Source of the DNA: a virus
Lineage: Duplodnaviria; Caudoviricetes
Direction: 5' to 3' (one strand)
IMG/VR virus record: IMGVR_UViG_2513237098_000002
Location: 1 to 64,000 of that record
DNA: 64,000 nt
Both the position numbers and the translations under genes were made by a program. Below, in pieces: positions 1-62,479 of the stretch; position 1 is the stretch's first letter, and each line of letters opens with the position of its first letter. Below the pieces are notes generated by a model. It saw nothing but the letters and a program-made list of their open reading frames with translations, was not told where the DNA came from and did not search any database.

Positions 1-1182
1 TTAATTCTGGCGCTGCGCGGTCCCGGAAACGGTCCCGGAAACGATTGGTTTTCGGGACCGACTCAGTTTGACGCCCAGCAAGTTGTCGAACGTGCGCGGC
101 GTCTCGTGCCGGTAGGTCTTGCGGATAGTCTCAACCGACACGCCGCAATATTGGCTCACCAGTTCGATATCCACGCCCGCGTCAAGGTACCACGTGATTG
201 CGGTGTGGCGCAGCGTGTGGCGCACCACCTTGCGGCGCTTGTCGTCAGTCCCGAGCCCAGCCTTCTCAACGAGACTTTCCCAGCCATCGTGAACGCGCTT
301 CACGGGCTTGCCCATGAATTCGACAACGGAGTGGTTAGAGATGCCAAGCCGCTTCCAGCGACGCATGTGCGCAAGCAGGCGAGGCGGCAGCGGCACCGTC
401 GGCTGCTGCTTGCTGGTCGCCTCCTTGTTGTCTGGCTTGCGCTTGAAGATGCCGCGATCCAGGTCAACATAGCCGCGGCCGATGGTCGGGATTACGGCGG
501 CGTTGCAGATGTCGCCGTTGCGCGAGCCAGTGTAGAGACCGACAAGGATGTATCGCGCGAGATGACGCAGCGTGTGGCGACCTTTGCTGGTCGCTAGTTT
601 GGTCGCCTTGCGATATCGCCAAGCGGTCCACAACATTTTCGCGGCCTCGCCGCGCTCTAAATAGCGCTCGCGAGACTTTGGCGCGGGCGGTAGCGTCGCA
701 CTAAACTTCGGCTGGATGCCGCCCTTGGTTTTCTTAACGCAACGATTGATCGCCGCCTGCAATAACTTCAGATCACGAAACGCTGATGCGCCGGTCTCTG
801 TTAAGCGCTCTTCGGCGTACCGTTCTTGCAGCGCGCCATCGAGATCGCCGATGGTGTAATCGGCAAACCAATTGCCGATGCGCTGTATGGCAGAGATCAG
901 TTGGTTCTTGTACGTCTGATCGATGTTGCGCTTACTGATGTGTCGAATTTCGAGCGAGCAAACGTCGGTGATCTTAATCGTGTTTACGTCGTTAGCGCTC
1001 AGCGCCTTCTTTGGGTCGTGCTTTTTGGTGATGTACGCGGCGAGGGCTTTTTCAGCTCCTGCGCGATCATGTTCATAGCATCCCGTGCCAGCGTCTTTGT
1101 CGCCGTCGCGGATGATCCACATGGTTTCTCTACCGGCACGCTTCTTTTTGCGGAGGTAGGGCGGCTTGCTTGGACGCGGCAT
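1..1182 (-). CDS. int: Tyrosine recombinase (phage integrase)
   Basis: Catalytic motifs TGSR, RHTLRHTAITW, GH-equivalent QYCG and Y in RKTYRH. Confidence 0.95.
   Translation of the reverse strand: MPRPSKPPYLRKKKRAGRETMWIIRDGDKDAGTGCYEHDRAGAEKALAAYITKKHDPKKALSANDVNTIKITDVCSLEIRHISKRNIDQTYKNQLISAIQRIGNWFADYTIGDLDGALQERYAEERLTETGASAFRDLKLLQAAINRCVKKTKGGIQPKFSATLPPAPKSRERYLERGEAAKMLWTAWRYRKATKLATSKGRHTLRHLARYILVGLYTGSRNGDICNAAVIPTIGRGYVDLDRGIFKRKPDNKEATSKQQPTVPLPPRLLAHMRRWKRLGISNHSVVEFMGKPVKRVHDGWESLVEKAGLGTDDKRRKVVRHTLRHTAITWYLDAGVDIELVSQYCGVSVETIRKTYRHETPRTFDNLLGVKLSRSRKPIVSGTVSGTAQRQN
19..59. repeat. Candidate integrase arm-type sites
   Basis: ggtcccggaaac in tandem at 19-42 plus an inverted 1-mismatch copy (gttttcgggacc, 48-59) inside the int 3' end. 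Confidence 0.55.
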
Positions 1183-2748: not shown

Positions 2749-3537
2749 TCAGAGCGGGTGCACAACAGCCATAACGCGACCGATGATCCGCTTGTCGGGG
2801 AGCTGGGTCGTGCCCCATACCACGTTGGCGCCGTCGGCATCGCCTTGCAGATAGACACCGGGTTCGTTGTCGATCCCGGTGCGCGATTGATCGACGATTG
2901 CATAGTCGCCGCGCTCTAGTTTGGTTTCGCCCTCCGACCAGCTCGCCACCACGCGCATCACCATGACATCGGTAGGCGAGCAATTGAGACCCTTCTCTAA
3001 CGTCGTGTGGGAAATCATCCAGTGGCCGAATTCGTGCGCGACGCTGAATTGGGCGGTCTGCCAATTCGTGATCAGTCGGGCAAGCTTCCGATAATTGTTG
3101 ACCTCAGGAACGCGCTGATACGCTTCATCTATAGCGGTGTTGTGCGCTTCCGTCGTCGTCGGGCGGCGCTCGAGGGTTGTCATTGTGGCCGCAGTCAAAC
3201 TGCTTTTGCCAGCACCTGCGGGGACCTCAATGTTAGCGAAGTCCGGTGGCGGCCCTGACCCGGTCAACAGCCAATCCAAAGACACCTTTGTCATCTCAGC
3301 AAACTTGATCAACTTGCTGATCGGAATGTTTTCCACCGCGCCGGTCTCCCACGTCGAGAGCGCATTACGGGACATATTGAGCCTTTCGGCGATCTGATCG
3401 GCATGCAGTTTCCGCCCCAGCCGAACCGCTTTGATGCGGTCGCCGATACGGTTGCCGGCTAGGAGCCTGGCTAATTCTGCGATCGGGCCGGTCATTAGAT
3501 CGTCAGGAGCGTCGGAGGGCATCAAGTTCCTCTTCAA
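2749..3537 (-). CDS. CI-like XRE repressor with degenerate S24-like C-terminus
   Basis: IGDRIKAVRLGRKLHADQIAERLNMSRNALSTWETG HTH; divergent from Cro-like gene. Confidence 0.85.
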   Translation of the reverse strand: MKRNLMPSDAPDDLMTGPIAELARLLAGNRIGDRIKAVRLGRKLHADQIAERLNMSRNALSTWETGAVENIPISKLIKFAEMTKVSLDWLLTGSGPPPDFANIEVPAGAGKSSLTAATMTTLERRPTTTEAHNTAIDEAYQRVPEVNNYRKLARLITNWQTAQFSVAHEFGHWMISHTTLEKGLNCSPTDVMVMRVVASWSEGETKLERGDYAIVDQSRTGIDNEPGVYLQGDADGANVVWGTTQLPDKRIIGRVMAVVHPL

Positions 3538-59330: not shown

Positions 59331-59967
59331 TATGTCGAAACTGGCCACAAGAATATTGATTGTCGACGACCACCCGGTGGTGTTGTCCGGATGCCGGGCG
59401 TTGTTCGCTTCCGACCGTGCAATCAAGATCGAGGAAGCCACCGACGCCAGGTCAGGCCACCGGGTTTATGTTAGCAGGAAGCCCGATGTGGCCGTGATCG
59501 ACATCAACCTCCCGGATGTTTCCGGCTTTGAGTTGATGCGCTGGATTCGCAAGGACGATCCGGCAGCCAGGATCATGATGTTCAGCACGAACAAAGACCC
59601 GGCCGTCGTGGTCCGCGCGGTGGAAGCGGGCGCCCAAGGCTATGTTTCCAAGGCCGACGACCCCAGGGTGCTCGTGAAGGCCGTCCGCACGATCGCGGCA
59701 GGGGGCACGTTCATATCGCCGCACCTGACGAAGGCCGTGACCTTTTCGGGCGCCGCCATCAAGGCCAATCCAGTCTCGCTGATGTCGCCGCGCGAACTGG
59801 AGATCCTGCGGCTGCTCGGCCGGGGCGACAAGATTGGCGAGGTCGCCGCGGCGCTCAGCATCTCCTACAAGACCGTCGCCAACACCACCTCGCGTCTGAG
59901 AGAGAAGCTCGGCACCAAAAATCATTCCGACCTGATCCGCATCGCCGTCGAAATGGCGTTGGGCTGA
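59331..59967 (+). CDS. Orphan NarL/LuxR-family response regulator
   Basis: ILIVDDHPVV, VIDINLPD, GYVSK; LMSPRELEILRLL..G...VAAALSIS.KTV. Confidence 0.9.
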
Positions 59968-60020
59968 TCCTTCATCCACCGCGACGCAGGCGTTATGTCC
60001 GGAAAGTTGGCGCGCCGCCC

Positions 60021-60050
60021 TTGACAAAGCCGCAATGCGGGCGCTTCTAC
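60021..60050 (+). promoter_or_regulatory. Sigma70-like promoter for the Y RNA-rsr locus
   Basis: CTTGACA about 35 nt upstream of the first RNA unit. Confidence 0.55.
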
Positions 60051-60056
60051 CGCGCC

Positions 60057-60128
60057 GCCACGCCGTAAGCTCTCGGTTACTTCGCACTAGCAACTATGCA
60101 CCAAGCACCGGGCGCGTCACTTGCTGGC
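60057..60128 (+). ncRNA. Short Y-RNA-like unit 1
   Basis: Shared motif CGCCGTA..CGGTTACTTCG; ctcggt pairs with accggg. Confidence 0.45.
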
Positions 60129-60133
60129 ACCCC

Positions 60134-60272
60134 TGAGACAGACGCCGTAGAAGTCGGATACTTCGCTTGAAGAGCCCCGGTCGTTGGTTCGATTCCAACC
60201 CGGCCCGCAAGGGCCGGTAGCTTAGTGGTAGAGCAGGGAAAAGGTGCCGGTTTCGCCTTTTGCTCTGTCTCA
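60134..60272 (+). ncRNA. yrlA: YrlA-class tRNA-mimic Y RNA
   Basis: 9-bp terminal stem; T-arm GTTGG-TTCGATT-CCAAC precedes an acceptor stem closed by GCAA, then D-arm GCTT-AGTGGTA-GAGC; adjacent to rsr. Confidence 0.85.
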
Positions 60273-60305
60273 CCGGTTGCGGTCGTGGTCCCGGACGATT
60301 GGAGT

Positions 60306-60400
60306 GGCCGCCGTAGGAAGCGGTTACTTCGTTGGATGAAGCGCCTGCCGCTGGCAGGCTTGGCCGTTCGAGTCGGCAAGTCCGCTTTCCGCCTCTCGCG
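60306..60400 (+). ncRNA. Y-RNA-like unit 3 with T-loop hairpin
   Basis: Same 5' motif; ggaagcgg/ccgctttcc stem; gccg-TTCGAGT-cggc T-like arm. Confidence 0.6.
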
Positions 60401-60441
60401 CCATTCCACCCGTCTCGGGAGAATGCAAACAGGAGCGACCG

Positions 60442-61782
60442 ATGCGAACCAACATCCGCGCGACGAACGCCCTTCGCACCCACGAGGGCGCCATGGCCCA
60501 TCCCGTCAATACCGAGCAGGCGCTGCGGCGCTCGGTGCTGTCCTGCCTCCTGTTCGAGAAGGAGTTCTATGAGGACGGCGTCGAGATTTCCGCGCGCATC
60601 AAAGCGCTGGCGGAGAGCCTGCCGCCGGAGATCGTGGCCGCGCTCGCCGTCGAGGCGCGCACCGTCATGCATCTGCGCCATGTGCCGCTGCTCCTGCTCG
60701 AGGTGCTGTCGCGCACCGCCGCCGGTCGCACCGACGCGCTGGTCGCCAGGACCATCGCGCAGGTGATCGCGCGCGCCGACGAGATGGCGGAGTTTCTGGC
60801 GATCTACACCGCAGGCGGCGACCGCCGCGCGGCCACGGCTGGCCATGGCCGCCAGTTCACCGCGCAGGTGATGCGCGGCCTCGACCTGGCGCTGCGAAAG
60901 TTCGATGCTTACCAGCTCGCCAAGTACGACCGGGCCGGCAAGGTCAAGCTGCGCGACGTCTTCCGCATCGTGCGGCCGAAGCCGGAGGACGATGCGCGGG
61001 CGGCCTTCTTCAAGGCGGCCAAGGACGGCGCCCTGCCGGCGCCCGATACGTGGGAGGTGGCGCTGTCGTCCGGTGCCGAGACCAAGCGGGAGGTGTTCGA
61101 GCGTCTCCTGACCGGCGACAAGCTCGGCTACCTGGCGCTGCTGCGCAACCTGCGCAACATGGCGGAGGCTGGCGTCGATCGCGACCTCGTCACTGACAAG
61201 ATCGCACTGCGCAAGGGCGCGGCCCGCGTGCTGCCGTTCCGCTATGTCGCGGCGGCACGCGCAGCTCCGCAGTTCGAGCCGGCGATCGATCGGGCGCTGC
61301 TGGCGGCGATCGGCGAGATGAGCAAGTTCGGAGGTAAAACTGCCATCCTCGTCGACGTCTCCGGCTCGATGAACGAGAAGCTGTCGGCGAAGTCGGACCT
61401 GACGCGGATGGACGCGGCGGCGGCGCTGGCCGCGATCCTCCCCGGCGACGACGTGCGGCTGTTCTCGTTCTCGAACCATGTCATCGAGGTGCCGGCGCGG
61501 CGCGGCATGGCTGGCATTGATGCGATCCTGCGCAGCCAGGGCCATCAGGGCACTTACCTGGGCCGGGCGGTGGCGTATATGAACGGCCTTGGCGCTGACC
61601 GCCTGGTGGCGATCACCGACGAGCAGAGCCACGACACCGTGCCGCCGCCAGAGATGAAGTACGCGTACATGATCAACGTCGCCTCGAACCGGAACGGCGT
61701 TGGCTATGGCCGCTGGACCCACATCGACGGCTTCAGCGAGAACGTGCTCCGCTTCATGCATGCGCATGAGGCCGACGACTGA
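60442..61782 (+). CDS. rsr: Ro60-related TROVE + vWA protein
   Basis: THEGA, LRRSVLSCLLFEKEFY, RTVMHLRHVP, RADEMAE, LLRNLRN, RVLPFRY; vWA LVDVSGSM, ITDEQS. Confidence 0.92.
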   Translation: MRTNIRATNALRTHEGAMAHPVNTEQALRRSVLSCLLFEKEFYEDGVEISARIKALAESLPPEIVAALAVEARTVMHLRHVPLLLLEVLSRTAAGRTDALVARTIAQVIARADEMAEFLAIYTAGGDRRAATAGHGRQFTAQVMRGLDLALRKFDAYQLAKYDRAGKVKLRDVFRIVRPKPEDDARAAFFKAAKDGALPAPDTWEVALSSGAETKREVFERLLTGDKLGYLALLRNLRNMAEAGVDRDLVTDKIALRKGAARVLPFRYVAAARAAPQFEPAIDRALLAAIGEMSKFGGKTAILVDVSGSMNEKLSAKSDLTRMDAAAALAAILPGDDVRLFSFSNHVIEVPARRGMAGIDAILRSQGHQGTYLGRAVAYMNGLGADRLVAITDEQSHDTVPPPEMKYAYMINVASNRNGVGYGRWTHIDGFSENVLRFMHAHEADD

Positions 61783-61791
61783 AGATAGAAG

Positions 61792-61816
61792 GGGGCTCGC
61801 CGCAAGGCGGGCCTCC
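61792..61816 (+). terminator. GNRA-capped hairpin after rsr
   Basis: ggggctcgcc-gcaa-ggcgggcctc; no U-tract. Confidence 0.4.
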
Positions 61817-61879: not shown

Positions 61880-62479
61880 ATGACCAAGAACCTTGAATTT
61901 GCCCTGCCGAAGAAGGGCACCACGGTGCCGGCAACCGCCGACTGGTTCCACGAAGTCAAATACGACGGCTATCGGCTGATGGTGATCCGTGACGGCGCCA
62001 GCGTGCGGCTGCGGACCAAGGGCGGCCACGATTGCACCAAGCGGTTTCCTTGGATCGCCGAGACCGCCCGCCAGATCCGCACCAAGCAATTCGTGCTCGA
62101 TGGCGAGGCGGTGCTGCTCGGGGTCGACGGCGTCAGCGACTTCGACGGGCTACATTCCGGCAAATACAACGAAGAGGTGCAGCTCTACGCCTTCGACATC
62201 TTGGCCGACAATGGCGAGGACGTGCGCAAGCTGCCATTGTCGATGCGCAAGCTGAACCTGGAGCGGCTATTGGCGCGGCGCGCCAGCGGCATCTTCGCGG
62301 CGCCGTTCGAGCGTGGTGAGATCGGGCCGGATCTGTTCCGGGCCGCCTGCAACATGGGGCTGGAAGGGCTGGTGTCTAAGCACAGCGGGCGCTGGTATGG
62401 TGCCGGACCATGCAGTCACTGGATCAAGGTCAAGAACCCGCAGCATCCGGCCTATCGACGAGTGCAGGATCAGTTCTAG
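61880..62479 (+). CDS. ATP-dependent ligase, adenylation domain only
   Basis: HEVKYDGYR, LDGEAV, YAFDIL, EGLVSK, WIKVK; ends without an OB domain. Confidence 0.88.
   Translation: MTKNLEFALPKKGTTVPATADWFHEVKYDGYRLMVIRDGASVRLRTKGGHDCTKRFPWIAETARQIRTKQFVLDGEAVLLGVDGVSDFDGLHSGKYNEEVQLYAFDILADNGEDVRKLPLSMRKLNLERLLARRASGIFAAPFERGEIGPDLFRAACNMGLEGLVSKHSGRWYGAGPCSHWIKVKNPQHPAYRRVQDQF

What the first reader, a model, noticed from the sequence alone, without database searches (positions are those of the whole stretch)
60021..61782. Ro60 (Rsr) locus with three tandem Y-RNA-like units, one a permuted tRNA mimic
Seen: CGCCGTA(N4-6)CGG(T/A)TACTTCG recurs at about 60061, 60143 and 60309, each able to pair with a downstream strand. 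Unit 2 is a cloverleaf with the T-arm first, an acceptor stem sealed by GCAA, a D-arm next and the anticodon stem opening into a long terminal stem. Unit 3 has a T-loop arm placed after its hairpin. Unit 1 is minimal. Established: YrlA Y RNAs mimic tRNA in this permuted way and lie next to rsr, often with rtcB. Unusual here: three units of different architecture under one promoter, no rtcB or rtcR in the window, and a position at a prophage edge. Inference: a phage- or island-borne RNA quality-control module, or tRNA decoys against anticodon nucleases.
Basis: partly seen in the sequence, partly recalled or inferred. Interest (0 to 1): 0.8.

Follow-up and report, generated by a model that had tools for sequence, protein, structure and literature searches.

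The report
Ro60 gene with three Y RNAs
A gene for the ring-shaped RNA-binding protein Ro60 (Rsr) is preceded by three small structured Y-RNA genes, one of them a rearranged tRNA look-alike; this is a divergent, unannotated but essentially ordinary example of a known bacterial and phage system, and it sits inside a large mobile insertion.

Summary
The motif CGCCGTA(N4-7)CGGWTACTTCG occurs exactly three times in the 64 kb, at 60061, 60143 and 60309, against none expected. The ORF at 60442-61782 is a TROVE+vWA Ro60/Rsr protein.

Each motif is the 5' strand of a conserved handle that pairs with its own downstream strand:
- stem I
- a bulged C
- a GC:GC step
- an internal loop, CGUA opposite GCC-UUUU
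- stem III

Seven or eight homologous loci (69-86% Rsr identity) keep all three unit types, and compensatory changes support them: 15 of 36, 11 of 25 and 5 of 13 pairs.
- Unit 2 is a YrlA-type permuted tRNA mimic. It scores 42.6 bits on Rfam YrlA (E 3e-8), below the curated cut-off.
- Unit 3 carries two hairpins and a T-arm.
- Unit 1 is a handle with one hairpin.

Arrays of two to seven units precede related Rsr genes in other Bradyrhizobium genomes, other phyla and several phages. Published work already describes two or more polycistronic Y RNAs per locus. This scan has also noted many such arrays on other DNA.

The genome has no RtcB. The locus lies in an 87.7-kb strain-specific insertion that holds a myovirus prophage and defence-type genes.

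Verdict: new member of a known kind, modest interest.

The parts
60021..60049 (+). Putative sigma-70-type promoter: TTGACA (60021-60026), 17-nt spacer, CTTCTA (60044-60049). It places the transcription start about 60056-60058, at the foot of unit 1.
   Evidence: Read directly. The same TTGACA-N17-(C/G)(T/A)TA.. arrangement at the same distance from unit 1 is present in L005, the C174 paralogue, L071, L074 and L103. The strict consensus scan did not list it. No transcript data are available.
60057..60128 (+). Y-RNA unit 1 (minimal). Stem I GCCA/UGGC (60057-60060 with 60125-60128), bulged C 60061, GC:GC (60062-63 with 60123-24), loop CGUAA, stem III (60069-60076 with 60108-60115), apical hairpin 60080-60105.
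   Evidence: Motif hit at 60061. Alignment A4 of 8 loci: 13 pairs, 95% of cells paired, 5 pairs with compensatory change, 1/500 shuffles reach the covariation score. The single-sequence fold gives the same shape, but its z-score is only -1.0.
60134..60272 (+). Y-RNA unit 2, a YrlA-type permuted tRNA mimic. Stem I (60134-60142 with 60264-60272), bulged C 60143, GC:GC (60144-45 with 60262-63), stem III (60150-60157 with 60247-60254), tetraloop hairpin 60161-60172, T-arm 60183-60199, 7-bp acceptor-like stem with GCAA loop 60200-60217, D-arm 60220-60234.
   Evidence: Rfam YrlA 42.6 bits, E 3.4e-8, at 60175-60240; this is one of only two YrlA hits in the genome, both beside rsr. Alignment A2 of 8 loci: 36 pairs, 98% of cells paired, 15 pairs with compensatory change, 0/500 shuffles. 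Fold z-score -2.8.
60300..60408 (+). Y-RNA unit 3. Stem I (60300-60308 with 60400-60408), bulged C 60309, GC:GC (60310-11 with 60398-99), stem III (60316-60323 with 60382-60390), hairpin 60327-60341, hairpin 60343-60359, T-like arm 60363-60377 with loop UUCGAGU.
   Evidence: Motif hit at 60309. Alignment A3 of 7 loci: 25 pairs, 95% of cells paired, 11 pairs with compensatory change, 0/500 shuffles. The minimum-energy fold equals the comparative structure, z-score -3.0. This unit is absent from the C174 paralogue.
60442..61782 (+). rsr: Ro60 orthologue, 446 aa, TROVE plus vWA domains with a MIDAS-like DVSGS motif. GGAG ribosome-binding site at 60432-60435.
   Evidence: Pfam TROVE 7.6e-14 and VWA_2 2.7e-6. 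PHROG 850 'RNA-binding protein' 3.4e-48. The closest solved structure is Thermus phage phiLo Ro60, 9KOP/9L5Y, E 1e-24. It is 57% identical to Rsr of Brevundimonas, Caulobacter and Xanthomonas phages.
61791..61816 (+). GC-rich hairpin with a GCAA loop just after the rsr stop codon, with no U tract. Possibly a 3' end or stabiliser of the rsr transcript.
   Evidence: Fold -25.6 kcal/mol, z-score -4.2. Not listed by the terminator scan because there is no T run. Its function is inferred.
61880..62479 (+). 199-aa ATP-dependent ligase consisting of the nucleotidyltransferase domain only (KYDG lysine motif). It is a neighbour of the rsr module, probably not part of it.
   Evidence: Pfam DNA_ligase_A_M 2.3e-20. 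Paralogues lie beside Ku at C47:78887-80336 and near the C174 rsr copy. It is absent from the flanks of 45 other rsr loci.

Best explanation
This is an Rsr (bacterial Ro60) ribonucleoprotein operon.

A sigma-70-type promoter at 60021-60049 drives one transcript. It carries three Y RNAs in tandem, followed by the rsr mRNA. The three RNAs are probably cut out of this precursor, as shown for YrlA and YrlB of Mycobacterium smegmatis.

Each RNA ends in the same handle, and the conserved 5' strand of that handle, C-GCCGUA(A)G, is the likely Rsr docking site. It is this lineage's version of the published GNCGAAN0-1G motif.

The apical modules differ:
- Unit 2 presents a tRNA elbow (T-arm, loop-capped 7-bp acceptor stem, D-arm).
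- Unit 3 presents two hairpins and a T-arm.
- Unit 1 presents one hairpin.

By analogy with Deinococcus and Salmonella, these modules would tether Rsr to different partners. Those could be PNPase or other exoribonucleases, or tRNA-recognising enzymes. The RNAs may also gate the Rsr ring.

Shown here: gene content, motif recurrence, conserved and covarying structures, exclusive linkage to rsr, and the mobile context.

Inferred: transcription start, processing into three RNAs, Rsr binding and the partners.
For: - Motif: 3 matches against 0 expected. In the whole genome it is confined to the two rsr loci.
- Protein: TROVE+vWA.
- YrlA model: the only two hits in the genome both lie directly upstream of rsr genes.
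- Covariation: support for all three units in 7-8 loci of 69-86% Rsr identity.
- Handles: the cognate pairs are far more stable than cross pairs for units 2 and 3.
- Promoter: conserved at a fixed distance from unit 1.
- Terminators: none predicted between the units and rsr.
- Architecture elsewhere: handle-module-handle arrays of 2-7 units lie upstream of related rsr genes. These include 29 other genomes of the genus, 12 other genomes of GTDB species and phages 10KY502B, Kikimora and CcrColossus.
- Literature (PMC4201824): two or more Y RNAs per species, one of them tRNA-like; M. smegmatis YrlA and YrlB lie upstream of rsr on one precursor; YrlB has a T-arm.
- Literature (PMC12135203): phage phiLo Ro60 binds two Y-like RNAs encoded upstream of its gene.
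Against: - There are no expression, processing or binding data. No RNA run holds this sequence.
- Unit 2 scores 42.6 bits, below Rfam's 69-bit YrlA cut-off, and only the tRNA-like core aligns.
- The handle differs from the published motif: GCCGUAG rather than GNCGAAG, and AUAC instead of YUAY in unit 2.
- Unit 1 has only a 4+2-bp basal stem, and its single-sequence fold is not better than shuffles (z -1.0).
- The covariation sets are small (7-8 related sequences), so shuffle counts overstate significance.
Confidence: 0.82

Rival explanations
1. The 385-nt region is one structured 5' leader of the rsr mRNA, not three separate RNAs. Rsr would bind the handle motifs in cis and feed back on its own translation or mRNA stability.
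For: One conserved promoter and no predicted terminator before rsr. Unit 3 ends only 33 nt before the start codon. The region is co-oriented with rsr and contiguous with it.
Against: Each unit closes on itself with its own covarying basal stem. That is the design of excisable Y RNAs. In M. smegmatis the same layout yields processed YrlA and YrlB bound by Rsr (PMC4201824). The C174 paralogue keeps the same distance from RBS to ATG without unit 3. The two readings are not exclusive.
Confidence: 0.1
2. The array is mobile-element cargo used in phage-host conflict. The tRNA-part mimics would act as decoys or sponges for tRNA-targeting nucleases, or Rsr with its Y RNAs would capture host PNPase, rather than serve house-keeping RNA quality control.
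For: The rsr lineage groups with phage and mixed alphaproteobacterial sequences, apart from the usual Rsr clade of the genus. The locus lies in an 87.7-kb insertion with a prophage, type I R-M, PIN and HD-domain genes. L005 has an endolysin-like gene 1.8 kb downstream. The NAR 2025 paper proposes PNPase hijacking by phage Ro60 (PMC12135203). Cousin units carry anticodon-arm look-alikes with CU-NNN-A(A/C) loops.
Against: In this window the tRNA mimic has no anticodon-like loop (GCUU tetraloop at 60161-60172), so anticodon nucleases would have nothing to cut. No tRNA nuclease or its target is identified here. Packaging of the locus in virions is not shown. About a fifth of genomes in the genus carry chromosomal rsr arrays.
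Confidence: 0.07
3. The tRNA-like pieces are decayed tRNA genes or integration-site remnants that happen to lie next to rsr.
For: ARAGORN finds no tRNA here. Mobile elements often disrupt tRNA genes.
Against: The order T-arm, capped acceptor, D-arm is kept with compensatory changes in 8 loci. The handle motif is shared by all units and is restricted to rsr loci. The insertion boundaries lie 46 kb and 41 kb away.
Confidence: 0.01

Closest known systems
Mycobacterium smegmatis rsr locus with YrlA and YrlB (Chen et al. 2014, PMC4201824)
   Same: The Y RNAs are encoded upstream of rsr on the same strand and made from one precursor. One RNA is a permuted tRNA mimic with a 7-bp acceptor-like stem, and another carries a T-arm. 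There is no RtcR control.
   Different: There are three units instead of two. The handle motif is GCCGUAG with a bulged C, rather than GNCGAAN0-1G. [quoted passage not shown] Expression and Rsr binding are unknown here.
Salmonella Typhimurium YrlA (Rfam RF02553; structure in bioRxiv 10.1101/312249)
   Same: The tRNA-like core has T-arm, loop-capped acceptor stem, UA linker and D-arm in the same permuted order. It attaches through a stem to the Ro60-binding helix.
   Different: The score is 42.6 bits against a 69-bit gathering cut-off, and only model positions 23-87 align. In Salmonella the RNAs lie 3' of rsr in an rsr-yrlBA-rtcBA operon under RtcR. This genome has no RtcB.
Phage-encoded Ro60 with upstream Y-like RNAs (Thermus phage phiLo Yrl1/Yrl2, PMC12135203; CcrColossus and mycobacteriophages listed in PMC4201824)
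   Same: The Rsr here is 57% identical to CcrColossus, Brevundimonas and Xanthomonas phage Rsr, and phiLo Ro60 is its closest solved structure. In those phages tandem Y-like units also lie directly upstream of the gene.
   Different: This copy sits in a bacterial chromosome, inside an integrated element. Those phages carry 5-7 units with the GGUGGCGUAG-type handle and UGUUCCCC 3' strand.
Common Bradyrhizobium-type rsr locus (42 of 200 genomes of the genus sampled)
   Same: Same genus and same overall layout: tandem handle-module-handle units, then rsr.
   Different: Its Rsr is only 50-54% identical to this one and falls in a separate tree clade. Those loci usually carry four units with a GGUGGUGAAG handle. 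This genome lacks that version.

Membership tests
Rsr / Ro60 (TROVE protein) | TROVE (HEAT-repeat ring) domain followed by a vWA domain with a MIDAS motif | tested here: met
   Pfam TROVE 52 bits and VWA_2 28 bits, both over their cut-offs. DVSGS is readable in the translation. Matches phiLo Ro60 9KOP at E 1e-24 over residues 10-401. Ring shape was not modelled.
Y RNA (bacterial, YrlA/YrlB class) | Encoded within a few kb of rsr, on the same strand | tested here: met
   All three units lie 34-385 nt upstream of rsr on the + strand. The same holds in every homologous locus examined.
Y RNA (bacterial, YrlA/YrlB class) | 5' and 3' ends pair into a long stem carrying the conserved 5'-strand motif GNCGAAN0-1G, followed by YUAY (PMC4201824) | tested here: inconclusive
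   The terminal stems are present and covary. The motif reads GCCGUA(A)G, with U where the consensus has A. Units 1 and 3 have UUAC and unit 2 has AUAC. This is a lineage variant, not an exact match.
YrlA (Rfam RF02553) | tRNA-like module in the order T-arm, acceptor-like stem-loop, D-arm, with conserved tRNA nucleotides | tested here: met
   Unit 2 aligns to model positions 23-87 with GGUUCGAUUCC in the T-loop and UAGCUUAGUGGUAGAGC in the D-arm. The T and acceptor stems covary.
YrlA (Rfam RF02553) | Score at or above the curated gathering threshold (69 bits) | tested here: not met
   The score is 42.6 bits, and nothing passes at gathering level. In the eight related loci scanned, phage loci included, no unit reaches the cut-off either.
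Y RNA (any) | Bound by Ro60/Rsr in vivo and dependent on it for stability | not testable with these tools
   No RNA-seq or binding data are available.
RtcB-linked RNA repair operon (rsr-yrlBA-rtcBA) | RtcB ligase and RtcR regulator adjacent | tested here: not met
   Pfam RtcB has no match anywhere in the 100%-complete genome. RtcB-like C-termini do lie upstream of the arrays in L012 and L014; I read these from the sequence and did not test them.

The most novel reading that the evidence does not exclude
Rsr with a multi-unit Y-RNA array is a mobile cassette, moved by phages and islands. Its units would form a small library of tRNA-part mimics: elbow only, T-arm only, or in cousin loci a whole cloverleaf with an anticodon-like loop. 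These would engage or titrate host tRNA-recognising enzymes or nucleases during phage-host conflict. In this strain the cassette would act without any RtcB repair ligase, perhaps with the adjacent nucleotidyltransferase-only ligase.
Probability: 0.1. Interest if true: 0.65.

Novelty: new member of a known kind. Interest (0 to 1): 0.3.

Why it matters
The locus adds a divergent, comparatively well-supported lineage to the bacterial Ro60/Y-RNA system. Its three Y-RNA types share a handle that departs from the published binding motif.

The Rfam YrlA model misses every unit in the eight related loci I scanned, three phage loci among them. Standard annotation therefore leaves these RNAs unmarked, or calls parts of them tRNA genes.

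The natural variation could guide binding studies. It includes:
- three modules on one handle
- a paralogue that lacks unit 3
- cousin loci with 2-7 units

None of this changes the current picture of what Ro60 and Y RNAs are.

Tried and rejected
- **Rfam at gathering thresholds.** Nothing in the window and no YrlA in eight related loci. Only the permissive search found YrlA.
- **ARAGORN.** No tRNA or tmRNA in the window or in contig C47.
- **RNA evidence.** No RNA holder is listed for this sequence. Only four soil-metagenome DNA runs hold small shares of it, so I did not lay reads.
- **Ligase as an RtcB substitute.** The ligase and the two small downstream ORFs are absent from the flanks of 45 other rsr loci. 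The ligase also has paralogues beside Ku and elsewhere. I treat it as a neighbour, not a component.
- **att-site search by exact repeats of 14 nt or more.** Nothing convincing. The boundaries came from comparison with one relative instead.
- **Synteny through the response-regulator gene at 59357-59967.** Relatives share only that gene, not its flanks.
- **Long-range pairing in the whole-region fold.** The fold pairs the 5' strand of unit 1 with the spacer after unit 2. I rejected this because the spacer is missing in the C174 paralogue.
- **Local hairpin at 60239-60261 in unit 2.** I rejected it in favour of stem III, which is what the other units and loci show.
- **Tree scripts.** Two calls returned no answer. 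A lighter FastTree run replaced them.
- **Literature.** The Annual Review on bacterial Ro60 (PMC10870794) and the supplements of Chen et al. 2014 are not held. I could not check whether arrays of more than two units are already tabulated there.
Full report
**1. What is in the sequence**

The pattern CGCCGTA(N4-7)CGGWTACTTCG has three matches in the 64-kb window, at 60061, 60143 and 60309, all on the + strand. None appeared in 100 dinucleotide-preserving shuffles.

The ORF at 60442-61782 (446 aa) has a TROVE domain and a vWA domain. It matches PHROG 850 'RNA-binding protein' at 3e-48. Its closest solved structure is the Ro60 of Thermus phage phiLo. It is therefore an Rsr/Ro60 orthologue.

Rfam at curated thresholds finds nothing in the window. 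A permissive scan of 59950-60470 finds YrlA at 60175-60240 with 42.6 bits, E 3.4e-8. The hit covers model positions 23-87, which are the T-arm, the loop-capped acceptor stem, the UA linker and the D-arm. ARAGORN calls no tRNA.

**2. Anatomy of the three units**

Read against relatives, each unit has the same handle:
- stem I
- a bulged C
- a 2-bp GC:GC step
- an internal loop, CGUA on the 5' side and GCC-UUUU (or UCUC) on the 3' side
- stem III
- (U/A)UAC
- a variable apical module

Unit 1 (60057-60128) has a 4-bp stem I and a single apical hairpin.

Unit 2 (60134-60272) carries these elements:
- a tetraloop hairpin (60161-60172)
- a T-arm (60183-60199)
- a 7-bp acceptor-like stem closed by GCAA (60200-60217)
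- a D-arm (60220-60234)

Unit 3 (60300-60408) has two hairpins and a T-like arm with loop UUCGAGU (60363-60377).

Folded alone, unit 3 gives exactly this structure (z -3.0). Unit 2 keeps the handle, T-arm and acceptor stem (z -2.8). Unit 1 is no better than shuffles (z -1.0).

Cognate 5' and 3' handle strands pair at -25.8 (unit 2) and -30.4 kcal/mol (unit 3). Their cross pairs are weaker, at -12.7 and -13.2 for unit 2 and -18.7 and -21.2 for unit 3. Unit 1 is weak at -15.9.

**3. Comparative support**

The own genome has a second rsr copy on contig C174, 81% identical in protein. It carries units 1 and 2 but not unit 3. A 1-nt insertion shifts its frame near codon 418.

Other members of the same handle lineage are:
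- Bradyrhizobium sp. SRL28 (L005, 83%)
- metagenome contigs L092 (86%), L071 (72%), L072/L073 (69%, four units), L074 and L103 (70%)

RNAalifold recovers the same handle independently for each unit type. Counting pairs on those structures gives the results below.

| Unit | Pairs | Cells paired | Pairs with compensatory change | Shuffles reaching the covariation score | Cells paired in slid controls |
|---|---|---|---|---|---|
| 2 | 36 | 98% | 15 | 0/500 | 31-44% |
| 3 | 25 | 95% | 11 | 0/500 | 34-49% |
| 1 | 13 | 95% | 5 | 1/500 | 27-45% |

The sets are small and the sequences are related, so these are indications, not probabilities. Stem I of units 2 and 3, stem III of all three units, the T stems and the acceptor stem all show changes on both sides.

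That criterion is not met.

**4. One transcription unit**

TTGACA (60021-60026), a 17-nt spacer and CTTCTA (60044-60049) precede unit 1. The same arrangement, with -10 variants CTTATC, CTATGG, CTACAA and GATAAC, sits at the same distance in L005, C174, L071, L074 and L103.

No terminator-like site lies between the units and rsr. A strong GC hairpin without a U tract follows the rsr stop codon. Transcription and processing remain inferences.

**5. How common the layout is**

Upstream of related Rsr genes I found arrays of handle-module-handle units in several groups:
- 1 to 6 units in Hyphomicrobiales, Geminicoccaceae, Amaricoccus, Asticcacaulis, Desulfovibrionaceae, Acidobacteriaceae and Dormibacterota
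- 5 units in Xanthomonas phage 10KY502B, 5 in Brevundimonas phage Kikimora and about 7 in CcrColossus
- usually 4 units in the Rsr type common in this genus, which 42 of 200 sampled genomes carry at only 50-54% identity to the window's protein

Those arrays use a GGUGG(C/U)G(A/U/C)AG handle with a UGUUCCCC 3' strand. The window's lineage has C-GCCGUAG with UUUUGC instead. In eight of these related loci scanned with Rfam, no unit reaches the YrlA cut-off.

The literature already states the following:
- M. smegmatis YrlA and YrlB lie upstream of rsr on one precursor.
- YrlB has a T-arm.
- Phages, CcrColossus included, carry Ro60 and YrlA-like RNAs (PMC4201824).
- Phage phiLo Ro60 binds two upstream Y-like RNAs (PMC12135203).

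Earlier notes of this scan record many Ro60 loci with tandem Y-RNA arrays on other DNA. Three heterogeneous units are therefore typical, not unusual.

**6. Context**

The window holds a myovirus-type prophage. Its integrase is at 1-1182 and its CI-like repressor at 2749-3537. Terminase, portal, head, sheath, baseplate and tail-fibre genes run up to 51527.

The 8.5 kb between the tail fibre and the rsr locus holds unknown minus-strand ORFs and a LuxR-type response regulator. Nothing in window 52000-59300 matches 40 relatives.

In one relative (G015) the left flank ends at C47:13928. It resumes 176 bp later at C47:101665. So 87.7 kb, window coordinates about -196 to 87541, is an insertion in this strain.

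To the right of the rsr locus this insertion contains the following genes:
- a Ku gene with a ligase paralogue
- an SRAP peptidase
- an HD phosphohydrolase
- type I restriction-modification genes
- a PIN protein
- an integrase fragment next to the right junction

A doubled GGTCCCGGAAAC-type motif occurs only at the two ends. Whether this is one element or a prophage plus an adjacent island is unresolved. Packaging of the rsr locus is not shown.

In a FastTree tree the window lineage has support 1.0. It is separate from the genus-type clade, which also has support 1.0. It groups with Asticcacaulis, one metagenome contig and the Caulobacter and Brevundimonas jumbo phages at moderate support (0.80). 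L005 has an endolysin-like gene 1.8 kb downstream of rsr. A mobile, phage-related origin is therefore likely.

**7. RtcB and the ligase**

The genome is 100% complete by marker genes and has no RtcB match.

The 199-aa ligase at 61880-62479 is a nucleotidyltransferase domain only. It is not found near rsr in 45 other loci. It has paralogues next to Ku and elsewhere in the genome. I regard the adjacency as island content, not as a functional replacement for RtcB.

**8. The decoy idea**

In cousin loci the hairpin between the handle and the T-arm often has a 7-nt loop of the form CU-NNN-A(A/C), followed by AGAGGUC; read by eye its stem is 5 bp. It therefore looks like an anticodon arm plus a variable loop. 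Phage records annotate such units as tRNA-Thr, tRNA-Ser or tRNA-Gln.

In the window and its three closest relatives this hairpin is reduced to CUUC-GCUU-GAAG. The mimic here therefore offers an elbow and an acceptor stem, but no anticodon loop. That weakens the anticodon-nuclease decoy reading for this copy.

**9. Verdict**

This is a divergent member of the known Rsr/Y-RNA system, carried on a mobile insertion. It is missed by standard RNA annotation, and comparative evidence for all three RNAs is good. Function, processing and binding rest on analogy.

Noticed in passing
own genome contig C174:20610-22430 (L002, L004): A second rsr locus, 81% identical in protein. It has units 1 and 2 but no unit 3. 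A 1-nt insertion (CCGGAAACGG against CCGGAACGG) shifts the frame near codon 418, so it is a likely pseudogene or an assembly error. A ligase paralogue and two small-ORF homologues lie nearby in rearranged order.
   Followed up: partly
contig C47:13929-101664 (window about -196 to 87541): An 87.7-kb insertion relative to one relative (G015), where the flanks lie 176 bp apart. The junctions share CCCGCCG. A doubled GGTCCCGGA(AAC/TT)GGTCCCGGAAAC motif occurs only just inside each end. A full integrase lies at the left end and an integrase fragment at the right.
   Followed up: partly
C47:78887-80336 (beyond the window end; L048:887-2336): A Ku gene next to a 200-aa nucleotidyltransferase-only ATP-dependent ligase, paralogous to the one downstream of rsr. 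Further copies lie on C174 and C4.
   Followed up: partly
C47:86663-101430 (L048, L070): Defence-type cargo in the same insertion: an HD/HD_assoc phosphohydrolase, type I restriction-modification HsdM and HsdR, and a PIN_12 protein.
   Followed up: no
L056:2304-2371, L057:2302-2376, L058:1631-1698: Features annotated as tRNA-Thr, tRNA-Ser and tRNA-Gln just upstream of phage Rsr genes overlap Y-RNA units. The 'anticodon arm' of each is the hairpin between the handle and the T-arm, with loops CUUGUAA and CUGCUAA in the first two. They are probably mis-annotated Y RNAs.
   Followed up: partly
L019-L047 (genus relatives), about 800 nt upstream of rsr: The Rsr type common in this genus (42 of 200 genomes sampled) is preceded by a conserved array, usually of four units. 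The units have a GGUGGUGAAG handle and heterogeneous tRNA-like modules.
   Followed up: partly
units across L005-L116: In many cousin units the hairpin before the T-arm has a 7-nt loop CU-NNN-A(A/C) followed by AGAGGUC. The middle triplet varies (UGU, GCA, AUC, GUU, GUG, GCU, GAU, CAU). The module therefore looks like a full cloverleaf permuted at position 26/27, not one with a long variable arm.
   Followed up: partly
window 60280-60298: The spacer between units 2 and 3 contains GGTCCCGGACGATTGG. This resembles the terminal motif of the insertion (GGTCCCGGAAACGATTGG at window 31-48). It is not conserved in L005, and the 9-mer frequency fits chance.
   Followed up: partly
L057:5877-6222: Brevundimonas phage Kikimora has a permuted tmRNA (Rfam RF04321, 57.7 bits) about 2 kb downstream of its Rsr gene.
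   Followed up: no
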